IMG/VR virus record: IMGVR_UViG_3300030380_000823
Span: 1-56,781 of that record
DNA from: a virus
Lineage: Duplodnaviria; Caudoviricetes
DNA length: 56,781 nucleotides
Reading direction: 5' to 3' (one strand)
A program made the translations under genes and the position numbers. Shown in pieces: positions 46,769 through 56,310 of the stretch. The notes under the pieces are model-generated. The model did not search any database. It saw nothing but the letters and a program-made list of their open reading frames with translations, and was not told the DNA's origin. Position 1 is the stretch's first letter; every line of letters starts with the position of its first letter.

Positions 46769-47677
46769 ATGGCTATTTCAAGAGCACAATTGCTAAAAGA
46801 ACTCCTGCCCGGACTGAACGCTTTGTTTGGAATGGAGTATGCTAAGTATGGTGAAGAACATAAGGAGATCTTTGAATCAGAGACTTCTGACCGTTCTTTT
46901 GAAGAAGAAACCAAGTTGTCAGGCTTTTCAGCAGCCCCCGTCAAAGGCGAAGGTTCTGCTATTGAGTACGACAACGCGCAAGAAGCGTTCACTGCACGCT
47001 ATACGCACGAAACTATTGCTATGGGCTTTAGTGTTACCGAGGAAGCAATCGAAGATAACCTCTACGATTCGCTGTCAGCGCGTTACACGAAGGCACTAGC
47101 CCGTGCTATGGCGTACACGAAACAAGTAAAAGGCGCGTCCATCTTGAACAATGCGTTCGCAGCAGGCACCACTTACGGTGACGGCAAGACGCTTTGTGCG
47201 ACGGATCACCCGCTTGTTTCTGGTGGAACCAACTCAAACCGTCCTGCTACGGCTTCTGACCTTAACGAGACTTCTTTGGAAGCCGCCGTTATCCAGATCG
47301 CTGGTTGGACTGATGAGCGTGGTTTGCTGATTGCAGCACGTCCTCGTAAGCTGGTAATCCCACCCAATCTTCAGTTTGTTGCAACTCGTTTGCTTGAAAC
47401 CGAAGGTCGTGTAGGGACTGCGGATAATGACCTGAATGCGATTCGCAACAACGGTTCTATCCCAGAAGGTTACACTGTTAACCATTACCTGACCGATACG
47501 GACGCTTGGTTCTTGACCACCGACGTACCGAATGGCTTGAAGCACTTTGTTCGTACCCCGATGGCTACATCTATGGATGCAGACTTCGATACGGGCAACT
47601 CGCGCTATAAAGCCCGCGAGCGATATAGTTTTGGCGTGTCCGACCCACTTGGGATTTTCGGTTCACCCGGAGCGTAA
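46769..47677 (+). CDS. Major capsid protein (HK97 fold)
   Basis: MAISRAQLLKELLPGLNALFG start and YKARERYSFG end; followed by a terminator. Confidence 0.85.
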   Translation: MAISRAQLLKELLPGLNALFGMEYAKYGEEHKEIFESETSDRSFEEETKLSGFSAAPVKGEGSAIEYDNAQEAFTARYTHETIAMGFSVTEEAIEDNLYDSLSARYTKALARAMAYTKQVKGASILNNAFAAGTTYGDGKTLCATDHPLVSGGTNSNRPATASDLNETSLEAAVIQIAGWTDERGLLIAARPRKLVIPPNLQFVATRLLETEGRVGTADNDLNAIRNNGSIPEGYTVNHYLTDTDAWFLTTDVPNGLKHFVRTPMATSMDADFDTGNSRYKARERYSFGVSDPLGIFGSPGA

Positions 47678-54541: not shown

Positions 54542-55174
54542 ATGGCAGTCTATACCAACGATTTACGGCTCAAAGAAATTGCCACGGGCGAAGAGTCAGG
54601 TTCGTGGGGCACAAGTACAAATACAAATTTATCACTAATAGGTGACTCTTTAGGTTTTGGTACAGAGGCGATCACGACAAACGCAGACACGCATACATCT
54701 ACTGTAGCAGACGGTACTGCTGATGCTGCTCGTGCAATGTATATTAAGTATACAGGCACCTTGGATTCAGCCTGCACGATCACGATTGGCCCTAATACAA
54801 TAAGTCGGGTTCACATCATAGAGAATGCAACAAGTGGGTCGCAGAATATCATCATCAGCCAAGGTTCAGGTGCTAATGTTACGATTGCTGCTGGCAACGT
54901 AAAAGTAGTGTATTTAGATGGCGCAGGAAGTGGCGCTGCTGTAACCGATGCTCTAGTAGATTTAGACTTGACTGGCACGACCACTATAGCAACAGCAGAC
55001 ATTAATGGTGGAACTGCTGATAATGTTGTTATTGGTGGCAGCACGGCGGCGGCTGGTACGTTTACTGATATTGTGTCTAATGGCAAAACTGTGGGCACAC
55101 AGTCCATTGTTAGCTCGAATCCGACATCTGCCTCTGGGTTCCCAGACGGGCATGTGTTCTACGTCATTAGCTAG
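54542..55174 (+). CDS. Tail fibre base / adaptor protein
   Basis: GEESGSWGTSTNTNL N-terminal motif common in phage tail fibres. Confidence 0.6.
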   Translation: MAVYTNDLRLKEIATGEESGSWGTSTNTNLSLIGDSLGFGTEAITTNADTHTSTVADGTADAARAMYIKYTGTLDSACTITIGPNTISRVHIIENATSGSQNIIISQGSGANVTIAAGNVKVVYLDGAGSGAAVTDALVDLDLTGTTTIATADINGGTADNVVIGGSTAAAGTFTDIVSNGKTVGTQSIVSSNPTSASGFPDGHVFYVIS

Positions 55175-55183
55175 GAACAAACA

Positions 55184-56158
55184 GTGGCTATATTTATTAA
55201 CGACAATGGAACGCTGAAGGAGCTAGATAACGACTCGCAGATTACTGTGGTCGCTACTGCCAATACGATTCATTCGGTGAATTTCATCGTCGTTAATAAC
55301 GGCGGTACGCTGGCTACGGTCTGGAACGCCATATACAACACGACTAGAGCTACTGCGACATCACTCGCAACGGCTACGTCTAACGCTACTCAGACTAGTC
55401 GGTCTACTAGTCAATCAACGACTACATCGTTCAACACTACGACTACGTTTGGCACTAGCAATAACACCACTACGTCGTTCAACACTACGACTACGTTTGG
55501 CACTAGCAAGAACACGTCAACTAGCTATAACACTAGTTTTAATACCACGACTTCGCGTGGCACTAGCAGGAACACGTCAACGTCGTTTAACACGTCTTTC
55601 GCCACGGCCACGAGCAGGAACACTTCGAGGAACACTAGTAGGAACACCAGTCGGAATACATCTAGGAACACGACCACTACGTTTGCTACGCTTTCTGGTA
55701 AAAACAACATAAATACAACGAGAAGCACGGCTACATCGTTCAGTACGTCGTTTTCTACATCGTTCTCTACATCGTTCAGTACGTCCTTTAACACCACGAC
55801 TTCGAGGAGCACGAGCAAGAACACATCTACATCGTTCAACACGTCTTTTGCTACGGCTACGAGTAGAGGCACAAGCAGAAATACATCAACCAGTTTCAAT
55901 ACAACCAGATCAACTGGAACGAGCAAAAGCACCTCGACTTCGTTTAATACGACAAGATCAACGGGCACTAGCAAATCAACTACAACGACTTTCAACACAG
56001 CGTTCGACACCACGACTACGTTCAACACCACAACGACTTTCAACACGAACACTGTTATATTCGAGCGATTAACTGCTACTGGTAATGACACTGAGGTTAC
56101 GTCTGGTAGCGCACATAACGCTAGATATCATGACGGATCGCAATGGACGGAAGACTAG
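55184..56158 (+). CDS. Thr/Ser-rich mirror-complementary fibre protein (predicted giant beta-hairpin)
   Basis: 324 aa; AGGA SD and GTG start; residues about 53-290 are T-x repeats with mirrored F/Y versus R/K pattern. Confidence 0.8.
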   Translation: MAIFINDNGTLKELDNDSQITVVATANTIHSVNFIVVNNGGTLATVWNAIYNTTRATATSLATATSNATQTSRSTSQSTTTSFNTTTTFGTSNNTTTSFNTTTTFGTSKNTSTSYNTSFNTTTSRGTSRNTSTSFNTSFATATSRNTSRNTSRNTSRNTSRNTTTTFATLSGKNNINTTRSTATSFSTSFSTSFSTSFSTSFNTTTSRSTSKNTSTSFNTSFATATSRGTSRNTSTSFNTTRSTGTSKSTSTSFNTTRSTGTSKSTTTTFNTAFDTTTTFNTTTTFNTNTVIFERLTATGNDTEVTSGSAHNARYHDGSQWTED

Positions 56159-56310
56159 AGGACGAGTTAAAGGCTATAAACAAGCGCATAGAAACAATGC
56201 TAGACATAGTCCTTGAGCATTTCGGTGATGCCGAAGATCGTTTCGATGAGTTAGAAAAGATGATTTCTGATCTGCGCAAGGCTAACGTAGAGACTAAAGA
56301 TGTCGATTGA
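56143..56310 (+). CDS. 55-aa coiled-coil protein (not in ORF track)
   Basis: MDGRLEDELKAINKRIETMLDIVLEHF...VD*; overlaps both neighbours. Confidence 0.6.
   Translation: MDGRLEDELKAINKRIETMLDIVLEHFGDAEDRFDELEKMISDLRKANVETKDVD

What the first reader, a model, noticed from the sequence alone, without database searches (positions are those of the whole stretch)
55184..56158. A self-complementary 'protein palindrome': tail-region protein with an aromatic:cation pairing code across a ~240-residue hairpin
Seen in sequence: on both sides of a central turn (L170-S-G-K-N-N-I176, nt about 55691-55711) every second residue is Thr, except for isolated large residues. These large residues mirror each other exactly at i+j=347: F167:R180, R161:F186, R157:F190, R153:F194, R149:F198, R145:F202, F139:R208, F135:K212, R129:F218, R125:F222, F119:R228, Y115:R232, K109:F238, F105:R242, F99:K248, N93:F254, F89:R258, F83:K264, Q77:F270, R73:F274, N67:F280, L61:F286. 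That is 22 consecutive pairs: 18 aromatic:R/K, 3 aromatic:N/Q and 1 L:F. There is no aromatic:aromatic or basic:basic pair, and the irregular 4/6 spacing is mirrored without a slip. For example, (TSRN)x5 faces (TSF[S/N])x5. The alternate positions are almost all S/T/N/A/G. Established: Thr favours beta strands, and cross-strand or diagonal cation-pi pairs stabilise beta-hairpins. Inference: the protein folds into one antiparallel ribbon of about 115 residues per arm (about 38-40 nm at 3.3-3.4 A per residue). Its register would be set by a binary, base-pair-like code, with the N- and C-terminal ends joining into a virion-anchoring base. I do not know of a described phage fibre family with this logic.
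Basis: partly seen in the sequence, partly recalled or inferred. Interest (0 to 1): 0.92.

Follow-up and report, generated by a model that had tools for sequence, protein, structure and literature searches.

The report
Self-pairing phage fibre with aromatic-cation code
A marine phage gene encodes a threonine-rich protein whose two halves mirror each other, every arginine or lysine on one half facing a phenylalanine or tyrosine on the other, and dozens of relatives keep the same rule through matched insertions and swaps, which points to a very long self-paired beta-hairpin fibre of a kind not yet described.

Summary
ORF 55184-56158 (324 aa) has 18 aromatic:cation pairs at i+j=347 and no like:like pair. 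All 35 other positions on that face are Thr:Thr. Shuffling the C-arm units never reached this score (0 of 20,000). No DNA or RNA inverted repeat explains it.

The window is a 91%-complete HTVC023P-like marine phage genome, and the gene lies in its structural module.

Relatives of 139 to over 1,100 aa obey the same rule. With the register fixed only by conserved terminal motifs, I counted 167, 110 and 642 aromatic:cation pairs in three sets. Like:like pairs numbered 0, 0 and 42, and I attribute most of the 42 to the tip knobs. Arm lengths stay matched. Near-identical phages differ by paired indels and concerted R:F to F:R flips.

Most relatives carry a globular knob at the tip. This copy is one of nine knob-less forms, all with a Gly-Lys apex.

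Best reading: a virion fibre whose shaft is an in-register antiparallel beta pairing of its two arms. The 3D geometry and oligomeric state are not shown, because AlphaFold2 gave no confident arm model. No Pfam, PHROG, PDB or literature match was found.

The parts
55173..55176 (+). Shine-Dalgarno-like AGGA, 8 nt before the GTG start
   Evidence: Read directly. Relatives L003 and L005 start at the same Val codon.
55184..56158 (+). Whole coding sequence of the hairpin protein (324 aa plus stop)
   Evidence: Homologues with the same ends were found in three searches: 34 proteins, 101 proteins and 41 viral loci.
55184..55339 (+). N-terminal conserved domain, aa 1-52, predicted to be small and all-beta
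   Evidence: Conserved across alignment A1. AlphaFold2 places strands at 3-45 with pLDDT about 72.
55340..55693 (+). N-arm, aa 53-170. Thr occupies every second position, and F/Y/R/K (or N/Q/L) occur at spacings of 4 or 6.
55694..55711 (+). Apex turn, aa 171-176 (S-G-K-N-N-I). The mirror axis falls between K173 and N174.
   Evidence: The Gly-Lys apex is present in 9 of 9 knob-less relatives.
55712..56059 (+). C-arm, aa 177-292, the mirror complement of the N-arm
56060..56155 (+). C-terminal conserved segment, aa 293-324 (the F-E-R-L-T ... R-Y-H-D-G-S-Q-W-T-E-D end)
   Evidence: It contains many of the invariant columns of A1. There is a weak DUF2510-like match at aa 310-323, E 0.0064, 16.6 bits against a cut-off of 24.
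56143..56310 (+). Downstream 55-aa coiled-coil-like ORF that overlaps the hairpin gene's end by 16 nt. It is a candidate assembly helper.
   Evidence: It is conserved directly downstream in 34 of 41 related loci. There are only weak coiled-coil Pfam matches. The helper role is an inference.
54542..55174 (+). Upstream 210-aa gene (phrog_31104, unknown function). Only a short stretch (about 25-29 residues, mapping just upstream of the hairpin gene) is conserved in most related loci. It is a candidate attachment partner.
   Evidence: (29 of 41 loci, most matching only 25-29 residues just upstream of the hairpin gene). The partner role is an inference.

Best explanation
The gene encodes a virion fibre protein of an HTVC023P-like marine phage. 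After a small N-terminal domain, the chain runs out as a roughly 118-residue Thr-rich beta strand. It reverses at a Gly-Lys turn and runs back as a second strand of the same length. It ends in a conserved C-terminal segment that lies next to the N-terminal domain.

The two arms lie antiparallel at equal height, with residue i opposite residue 347-i. One face carries only Thr:Thr pairs, interrupted every 4 or 6 residues by one aromatic facing one Arg or Lys (or, near the base, a polar residue). The other face carries small polar residues (S/N/T/A/G).

The aromatic/cation pattern acts as a register code. Only one alignment of the arms avoids placing aromatic against aromatic or cation against cation.

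Most relatives carry a globular knob at the distal end, probably for receptor binding. This phage's copy has lost it or never had it.

What is shown: the mirror, its statistical weight, its conservation, the paired indels and the concerted swaps.

What is inferred: beta-strand conformation, direct cation-pi contact, intrachain rather than interchain pairing, oligomeric state (a trimer is likely for a phage fibre), virion location and adsorption function.
For: 1. Mirror in the window protein. There are 18 aromatic:cation pairs, 0 like:like pairs and 35 of 35 remaining positions Thr:Thr. Shuffles matched this in 0 of 20,000 trials.

2. Not a nucleic-acid effect. Only 2 inverted repeats were found, and neither joins the arms. 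Base complementarity between the arms is at most 0.41.

3. Register fixed by terminal motifs alone.
- Small family (29 proteins): 167 aromatic:cation, 0 like:like.
- Close family (28 proteins): 110 aromatic:cation, 0 like:like. In both sets other shifts give 30-100 like:like pairs.
- 26 distinct full-length proteins from viral contigs: 642 aromatic:cation against 42 like:like, counted over the whole half-protein with knobs included. At shifts of +/-4 and +/-6 the counts are 135-222 against 133-223.

4. Arm lengths. The N-arm equals the C-arm minus 1 or 2 residues in 25 of 27 homologues, while arms range from 66 to 90 residues (r = 0.95). The rule holds for arms of 364 pairs (L041, 40:0) and about 490 pairs (L039, 60:0).

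5. Rapid compensated change. Phages whose flanking genes are 83-97% identical have hairpin proteins only 66-67% identical. They differ by 4-6 paired-indel events and by concerted R:F to F:R flips. One-sided class changes were nearly all polar/cation swaps opposite a conserved aromatic (13 listed; 2 exceptions, A:T>F:S and F:S>N:T), and none produced a like:like pair.

6. Apex. In 9 of 9 knob-less forms the axis lies 1-4 residues from an invariant Gly-Lys. Together they have 233 aromatic:cation pairs against 1 like:like.

7. Fibre context. The gene sits between the capsid and virion structural genes. Thr-rich arm plus knob modules are fused to a Peptidase_S74 fibre chaperone domain (P0105, E 3e-13) and match phrog_1980 'tail fiber protein' (E 1e-18).

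8. No fixed parallel offset stacks the key residues. The best, offset 16, gives 18 like:like against 39 key:other. This argues against a regular solenoid.
Against: - No structural evidence exists. AlphaFold2 gave pLDDT below 50 for residues 48-313 of this protein. It also gave low confidence for the mid-arms of a short relative, although it placed low-confidence strands at 9-22 and 194-207, the segments the register pairs.
- Thr-rich F/R repeats also occur as a single arm before a knob and an S74 domain or other domains (P0031, P0105, P0075, P0080). The repeat can therefore exist without an intrachain partner arm.
- A fully extended ribbon would make L039's arms longer than 200 nm, which is surprising.
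- The arms carry 20 R/K against 1 D/E, a high charge density.
- Exceptions exist. In L028 the register drifts by +1 per 'TDIGDT' repeat, and L019 and L037/P0019 give weak signals.
- The homologues are related to each other, so pair counts are not independent events.
- In one search a crude composition rule cut the arm short in many proteins. P0001 itself contributed only residues 53-58 there.
Confidence: 0.72

Rival explanations
1. The same antiparallel register applies, but between chains. The N-arm of one subunit pairs with the C-arm of another in a domain-swapped dimer or trimer, rather than forming an intrachain hairpin.
For: Sequence covariation cannot distinguish intrachain from interchain contacts at i+j=347. 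The unit aa 119-145 is self-complementary and repeated in both arms. One-armed Thr-rich proteins exist.
Against: The mirror axis falls on a short conserved Gly-Lys turn in 9 of 9 knob-less forms, or on a compact knob that AlphaFold2 folds as one chain at pLDDT 92-94. That geometry brings the two arms of one chain together. Both termini are conserved together.
Confidence: 0.13
2. The arms are compacted into a beta-solenoid, triple beta-helix or other coiled fold. Mirror positions then share only the same height along the fibre and are not hydrogen-bonded cross-strand neighbours.
For: Any up-and-down fold with equal rise per residue in both arms gives i+j = constant. Arms of 360-640 residues would be more credible if compacted. 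T-x-T arrays are typical of solenoid antifreeze proteins (recalled, not tested).
Against: No constant repeat period exists. Spacings of 4, 6, 8, 10 and 16 are mixed, and five consecutive 4-residue units occur. The best parallel offset stacks only 18 like:like against 39 mismatched. The strict one-to-one aromatic:cation rule with 0 like:like suggests direct contact.
Confidence: 0.08
3. The region is a disordered low-complexity Thr/Ser-rich linker. On this view the mirror is a by-product of repeat turnover or chance and has no structural meaning.
For: AlphaFold2 and ESMFold2 give no confident structure. The composition is extreme: T 91, S 52 and N 28 of 240 arm residues. The only NCBIfam match is a compositional one to a serine-rich protein, 20 bits against a cut-off of 650.
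Against: Shuffles matched the mirror in 0 of 20,000 trials. Repeat turnover acts on direct repeats and cannot make a mirror, and there is no inverted DNA repeat. Arm lengths and complementarity are kept across proteins from 139 to over 1,100 aa with different patterns. The strict period-2 alternation and absence of Pro fit strands rather than disorder.
Confidence: 0.03

Closest known systems
Receptor-binding tip of the phage T4 long tail fibre (gp37 needle plus head domain)
   Same: It is an elongated trimeric shaft, with iron sites along a needle, ending in a small distal receptor-binding domain (passages of PMC6957217). From memory (Bartual et al. 2010, not seen here), each chain runs up the needle and back, so that the N- and C-proximal parts meet in a collar. 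That is the same up-knob-down topology as the arm-knob-arm relatives found here.
   Different: There is no sequence relationship: 0 PDB sequences matched either family profile. gp37 is held by His-x-His iron sites, whereas this protein has no His in its arms. The gp37 needle is tens of residues per strand, while these arms run from about 30 to over 600 residues. No aromatic/cation mirror code is described for gp37.
Cross-strand cation-pi and aromatic pairs in designed beta-hairpins (tryptophan zippers, Lys/Arg-Trp hairpins; recalled literature, not seen here)
   Same: An aromatic opposite a cation, or aromatic pairs on one face of a two-stranded antiparallel hairpin, stabilise it and fix its register. 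Thr is a strong beta former.
   Different: Those are peptides of 12-20 residues. Here the rule would run over more than 100 residues per arm, and up to several hundred in relatives, in a natural and evolving protein.
Phage tail fibres and tailspikes with a C-terminal Peptidase_S74 intramolecular chaperone (PF13884)
   Same: Relatives P0105 and P0031 join the same Thr-rich F/R repeats, and in P0105 a knob-like segment, to an S74 domain. P0105 matches phrog_1980 'tail fiber protein'. S74 domains aid trimerisation and self-cleave (passage of PMC12143355).
   Different: The window protein has no S74 domain. It has two arms and no distal domain.
gp38-type receptor-recognising adhesins
   Same: The confidently modelled knob of relative P0045 had as its best viral fold match a 'Receptor-recognising protein Gp38 domain-containing protein' of Rhizobium phage RL2RES (Foldseek E 1.8e-3, TM 0.24).
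   Different: The match is marginal and there was none in the PDB. The window protein lacks the knob altogether.
Single-layer or core-less beta rods (OspA central sheet, SasG E-G5 rod) and T-x-T antifreeze solenoids (recalled, not tested)
   Same: They are extended beta structures stabilised without a conventional hydrophobic core, with flat Thr-rich faces.
   Different: They have a different topology: three-stranded sheets, or parallel solenoid coils of constant length. No mirror complementarity between two halves of the chain is known for them.

Membership tests
T4 gp37-type needle tip | His-x-His motifs that coordinate iron along the needle | tested here: not met
   His occurs only at residues 30, 311 and 316, with none in the arms 53-292. 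The iron sites of gp37 are taken from passages of PMC6957217.
T4 gp37-type needle tip | Detectable sequence similarity to solved gp37 or related fibre chains | tested here: not met
   Profiles A1 and A2 matched 0 of 177,635 distinct PDB sequences at E up to 1.
T4 gp37-type needle tip | Trimer with each chain going up and back, giving a six-stranded shaft | not testable with these tools
   The up-and-back topology is inferred from the mirror. The oligomeric state is unknown, because the three-copy fold gave no answer (see Tried and rejected).
Peptidase_S74 fibre or tailspike family (PF13884) | C-terminal intramolecular chaperone domain | tested here: not met
   There is no PF13884 match in P0001 at E up to 1. 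It is present in relatives P0105 (E 3.1e-13) and P0031 (precomputed).
DUF2510 (PF10708) | Score above Pfam's gathering cut-off | tested here: not met
   16.6 bits against a cut-off of 24, at aa 310-323. Relative P0007 scored 17.6 bits.
Any PHROG, NCBIfam or Pfam family for the arms | A significant profile match | tested here: not met
   PHROGs gave none. Pfam gave none apart from the weak DUF2510 hit. NCBIfam gave only a compositional 'serine-rich protein' hit of 20.2 bits against a cut-off of 650.
Regular beta-solenoid (for example T-x-T antifreeze type) | A constant coil length, so that like residues stack at i and i+P | tested here: not met
   The best parallel offset, P=16, gives 18 like:like, 3 aromatic:cation and 39 key:other over both arms. 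Five consecutive 4-residue units cannot be coils.
The arm-knob-arm (or arm-turn-arm) family defined here | Two Thr-rich arms of matched length between conserved ends, with aromatic:cation complementarity at the register set by the ends | tested here: met
   P0001 has 18:0 at i+j=347, which equals the terminal-motif anchor.

The most novel reading that the evidence does not exclude
This would be a natural two-letter pairing code for beta strands. An aromatic faces a cation, each such pair is insulated by Thr:Thr pairs, and the pattern fixes the register of two strands over hundreds of residues much as base pairing fixes a nucleic-acid hairpin. It would define a new fibrous fold, widespread in uncultured marine phages, whose length evolves quickly by matched gain and loss of repeat units in both arms. 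Its rules could be copied to design beta ribbons of programmed length and register.
Probability: 0.5. Interest if true: 0.92.

Novelty: new variant of a known kind. Interest (0 to 1): 0.82.

Why it matters
Structure. If the arms pair as inferred, this is an undescribed way to build a long protein rod. It has no hydrophobic core, no metal sites and no fixed repeat length. Its register is specified by a simple complementary pattern that tolerates rapid, compensated change.

Protein design. The family gives a ready-made natural data set of arm patterns for learning rules of beta-strand pairing. It already includes dozens of distinct patterns and arms from about 30 to over 600 residues. It also marks a clear blind spot of current structure predictors.

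Phage biology. The family identifies a fast-evolving, length-variable appendage gene in HTVC023P-like phages, a group reported as widespread among marine phages (abstract of PMC9599517). That makes it a candidate determinant of host adsorption.

Tried and rejected
DNA or RNA palindrome as the cause: rejected. The repeat finder found only two inverted pairs, both outside the arm-arm axis. Base pairing between the arms at or near the protein apex is at most 0.41.

Antisense ORF 55525-56091 (188 aa, Val-rich): treated as a mechanical by-product of the Thr codons. The forward frame has conserved homologues.

AlphaFold2 monomer of P0001 with alignment A1: mean pLDDT 41 and no secondary structure in residues 48-313. 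This is uninformative. A1 also misaligns the middle of P0001 against the knobs of the other rows.

AlphaFold2 of the short relative P0045 with A2: only the knob is confident.

Foldseek of that model: nothing in the PDB at E <= 0.001, and one marginal gp38-like hit in BFVD.

Three-copy complex prediction of P0001: verdict 'no answer', score 0.00, controls not run. It counts neither for nor against oligomerisation.

ESM Atlas: only unnamed viral clusters below 0.9, and no model held.

tblastn of P0001 and P0014 against 50,697 phage records: no match. The low-complexity filter may hide the arms. I looked at HTVC023P's annotated structural region but did not find or test a counterpart there.

Literature searches found no description of such a protein. 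The RBPseg fibre atlas text contains neither 'hairpin' nor 'threonine'.

Internal mirrors in one-armed Thr-rich proteins: only what periodic repeats give trivially. How those proteins fold remains unexplained.

A second, interchain register: no other shift is free of like:like pairs, so nothing was learned about neighbouring chains.

In those counts the knob of P0002 is misplaced, giving a difference of -15. The arm-end rule stopped early in many proteins, so the counts there are lower bounds.

In one search I gave 30 of the 41 loci. I left out L004, L006, L007, L008, L009, L012, L017, L021, L023, L032 and L033 as identical, near-identical or partial copies seen. Four of the 30 (L034, L035, L036, L039) lack the N-terminus. 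Three of these (L034, L035, L039) were analysed from the apex; L036 was not analysed further.
Full report
WHAT IS THERE

The finding lies on one open reading frame, 55184-56158 on the + strand. It has a GTG start, encodes 324 aa, and has an AGGA 8 nt upstream.

The window is a whole IMG/VR virus record of 56,781 bases, estimated 91% complete. Its capsid protein (46769-47677) is 70% identical to those of Synechococcus phage MinM2 and Planktothrix phage Pag-Yong1. It is 63-64% identical to those of Pelagibacter phages HTVC023P and HTVC027P.

The gene sits in the structural module. Upstream lie the large terminase (40075), portal (41638), capsid and several 'virion structural protein' PHROGs. Across the arbitrary contig ends lie further structural proteins and a 2,068-aa protein.

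CHECK OF THE OBSERVATION

At i+j=347 there are 18 aromatic:Arg/Lys pairs, 3 aromatic:Asn/Gln pairs and 1 Leu:Phe pair, with no aromatic:aromatic or cation:cation pair. The next best register, 343, has 8 complementary and 2 like:like pairs.

The face that carries these residues holds nothing else but Thr:Thr, in 35 of 35 remaining positions. The other face is S 51, N 24, T 20, A 12, G 6, and 5 others of 118.

The arms contain 20 R/K against 1 D/E, and no His, Pro or Cys.

IS IT CHANCE OR A TRIVIAL BY-PRODUCT?

I shuffled the order of the 21 C-arm units and took the best of 55 registers. This reached a score of 18 in 0 of 20,000 trials, with a maximum of 15.

The mirror is not a nucleic-acid palindrome. 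Only two inverted repeats exist in the gene and neither links the arms. Base complementarity between the arms is at most 0.41.

One stretch, aa 119-145 and 202-228, is a direct DNA repeat of 83% identity. Its F/R pattern is its own mirror complement, so direct duplication of a self-complementary unit contributes to the mirror. The five R units facing five F units, and the outer parts of the arms, cannot be explained in that way.

RELATIVES

A word-indexed search found 34 proteins. A full profile search of 1.84 billion representatives found 101. A scan of viral contigs found 41 loci. None carries a name. P0001 has no Pfam, PHROG or NCBIfam family. No PDB sequence matches either family profile. 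No cultured phage record matched.

The close family shares both ends of the window protein. Between the two Thr-rich arms, however, it has a 68-94-residue aromatic-rich segment.

A second, shorter family of 139-263 aa has different ends but the same arm-knob-arm plan. AlphaFold2 folds the knob of one member as an all-beta domain at pLDDT 92-94.

The module also occurs inserted in larger proteins (P0060, P0125). The knob occurs without arms (P0108, P0111, P0114).

The window protein is therefore a knob-less variant of a stalk-and-knob module.

THE DECISIVE COMPARATIVE TESTS

Test 1: arm lengths. With boundaries taken from alignment columns, the N-arm equals the C-arm minus 1 or 2 residues in 25 of 27 homologues, while arms range from 66 to 90 residues. 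P0019 differs by 0. P0002 differs by 15 because its knob is misplaced by the columns. The correlation is r = 0.95, against 0.31 between N-arm and knob length.

Test 2: register. I fixed i+j from conserved terminal motifs only, without looking at the arms.
- The short family gave 167 aromatic:cation pairs and 0 like:like.
- The close family gave 110 aromatic:cation and 0 like:like.
- In both sets, shifts of +/-4, 6 or 8 gave tens of like:like pairs each. These counts are lower bounds, because my arm-end rule stopped early in many proteins.
- For 26 distinct full-length proteins translated from the viral loci, counting the whole half-protein with knobs included, the anchored register gave 642 aromatic:cation against 42 like:like. 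At +/-4 and +/-6 the counts were 135-222 against 133-223.
- The rule holds in proteins of 806 aa (60:3) and 1,074 aa (83:2).

Test 3: compensated change. Five loci (L003-L007) have flanking genes 83-97% identical to the window's, but hairpin proteins only 66-67% identical and 348 or 368 aa long. I aligned the proteins as columns of facing pairs.
- They differ by 4-6 paired-indel events covering 14-30 columns.
- They differ by concerted R:F to F:R flips and one F:R to T:T change.
- One-sided class changes were nearly all swaps between a polar residue and a cation opposite a conserved aromatic (13 listed; 2 exceptions, A:T>F:S and F:S>N:T).
- No change made a like:like pair.
- Elsewhere, P0020 and P0023 carry an 8-residue unit in place of the usual 10-residue unit at mirrored places in both arms.
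- In P0074, one arm carries almost only aromatics at the paired positions and the other almost only cations.

Test 4: apex. Nine distinct knob-less forms were found, with 76 to about 490 observable pairs. All have Gly-Lys at the apex, with the best axis 1-4 residues from the Lys. Together they have 233 aromatic:cation pairs and 1 like:like. L039 has a C-arm of 637 residues, with 60:0 over the part whose partner is on the contig.

The code is asymmetric. Cations rarely face anything but an aromatic, whereas aromatics often face N, Q, S or D, mostly near the base.

EXCEPTIONS

In L028 the best local register moves by +1 with each 'TDIGDT' repeat. This suggests a one-residue bulge per repeat that is matched by a different motif in the other arm. 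L019 loses register in its distal half. L037/P0019 has few cations.

Thr-rich F/R repeats also occur as a single arm before a knob-like segment and a Peptidase_S74 domain (P0105, P0031) or other domains (P0075, P0080). I found no convincing internal mirror in these. How they fold is unexplained, and it is the main caution against a purely intrachain model.

STRUCTURE PREDICTION

AlphaFold2 gave no usable model of the arms, either for this protein or for a short relative. In the relative it did place two 14-residue strands at 9-22 and 194-207, the base segments that the register pairs, but at pLDDT of about 55 and without contacts that I could inspect.

The knob's best fold match was a gp38-domain receptor-recognising protein at E 1.8e-3, which is a lead only. 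The PDB gave nothing.

MOST LIKELY MECHANISM

The strict period-2 alternation, the absence of Pro, and i+j = constant kept over hundreds of residues together indicate two extended strands running antiparallel at equal rise. Facing residues share one face.

On that face, each aromatic:cation pair is insulated by at least one Thr:Thr pair, since spacings are never below 4. The one exception is a Y-x-F motif in L041 whose second aromatic faces Gly.

Only one register avoids like:like clashes, so the pattern can set and proofread the register. The conserved N- and C-terminal parts would then lie together at the base.

Several observations make a virion fibre the best functional reading:
- the gene's position among structural genes;
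- its rapid change between near-identical phages;
- the S74 and 'tail fiber protein' links of relatives;
- the conserved small coiled-coil ORF overlapping its stop, present in 34 of 41 loci. This recalls small fibre-assembly helpers such as T4 gp57A (recalled, not tested).

Without a knob, binding might occur along the cationic, aromatic and hydroxyl-rich shaft, or the protein may serve as a spacer or whisker. That part is speculation.

RIVALS

Pairing between chains in the same register cannot be excluded by sequence. It fits poorly with the tight Gly-Lys apex and the single-chain knob.

A compacted solenoid-like fold would explain the very long arms. It conflicts with the mixed unit lengths and the lack of any stacking offset.

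Disorder or chance is contradicted by the conservation tests.

COMPARISON WITH WHAT IS KNOWN

The nearest architecture is the T4 gp37 tip, a trimeric needle ending in a small head domain. The iron sites are taken from passages of PMC6957217. The up-and-back chain path is recalled from Bartual et al. 2010, which I did not see.

This protein shares the inferred topology. It does not share the sequence, the His-iron sites or the scale, so it is not a member of that family.

Cation-pi and aromatic cross-strand pairs are known register-setting devices in short designed hairpins (recalled). Here the same physics would operate at a scale roughly one to two orders of magnitude larger in a natural protein.

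A fibre atlas built on coliphage fibres does not mention such a class in its main text, and its supplements were not available. Five literature searches found no description.

VERDICT

The pairing interpretation is strongly supported by covariation and paired indels. Geometry, oligomeric state, virion location and function remain inferences.

I rate it a new variant of a known kind: a phage fibre with an undescribed shaft logic. There is a fair chance that it is a new fibrous fold.

Noticed in passing
window:56143-56310 (+): A 55-aa ORF with weak coiled-coil matches overlaps the hairpin gene's last 16 nt. It is kept directly downstream in 34 of 41 related loci. It may be a fibre assembly helper. 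The analogy to T4 gp57A is recalled, not tested.
   Followed up: partly
window:54542-55174 (+): The upstream 210-aa protein (phrog_31104, unknown function) is conserved along its whole length only in the closest phages. In most of the other matching loci (29 of 41 in all) only a stretch of about 25-29 residues, mapping just upstream of the hairpin gene, is conserved. This may be a joint to the hairpin protein's N-terminal domain.
   Followed up: partly
window:53654-54541 (+): A 295-aa ORF is made of Val/Thr/Gly-rich short repeats (V-T-G-V-x-G-T-G type). It has no Pfam, PHROG or NCBIfam match and relatives in only 5 of 41 loci. It is a second repetitive, probably fibrous, protein next to the finding.
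   Followed up: no
L028:1537-3117: This 527-aa relative has an N-arm that repeats 'TDIGDT' and a C-arm that repeats a different 'TDTF' motif. The best local register moves by +1 per repeat, as if each repeat held a matched one-residue bulge.
   Followed up: partly
L039:1-3504 and L011:937-4158: Family members reach at least 1,168 aa (knob-less, N-terminus cut by the contig end, C-arm 637 residues) and 1,074 aa (with knob). Both are still in perfect register. If extended, such arms would exceed 150-200 nm.
   Followed up: partly
proteins P0031, P0105, P0075, P0080, P0032, P0122: The same Thr-rich aromatic/cation repeats occur as a single arm. They are fused to Peptidase_S74 (P0031, P0105), to other globular domains, or to what looks by eye like a Hint/intein-type domain (P0032, P0122; not tested). 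No clear internal mirror was found.
   Followed up: partly
L041:802-3246: In this 815-aa knob-less relative a 'S-Y-S-F' motif faces 'S-G-S-R'. The Tyr faces Arg and the extra Phe faces Gly, which hints at large:small complementarity in addition to the aromatic:cation rule.
   Followed up: no
window:9337-15543 (+): A 2,068-aa protein has a C-terminal third that matches PHROGs annotated 'DarB-like antirestriction' (E 5.8e-55) and an N-terminus that matches a virion structural protein family. It is probably a large ejected virion protein.
   Followed up: no
window:48914-49594 (+): A gene matching phrog_3704, annotated 'ferredoxin' and classed as an auxiliary metabolic gene (E 1.1e-28), sits inside the structural gene block.
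   Followed up: no
window, whole: A paper on HTVC023P-type pelagiphages reports curli-type secretion genes (CsgF, CsgG, CsgA/B) in such genomes (passages of PMC9599517). I did not check whether this window has them.
   Followed up: no
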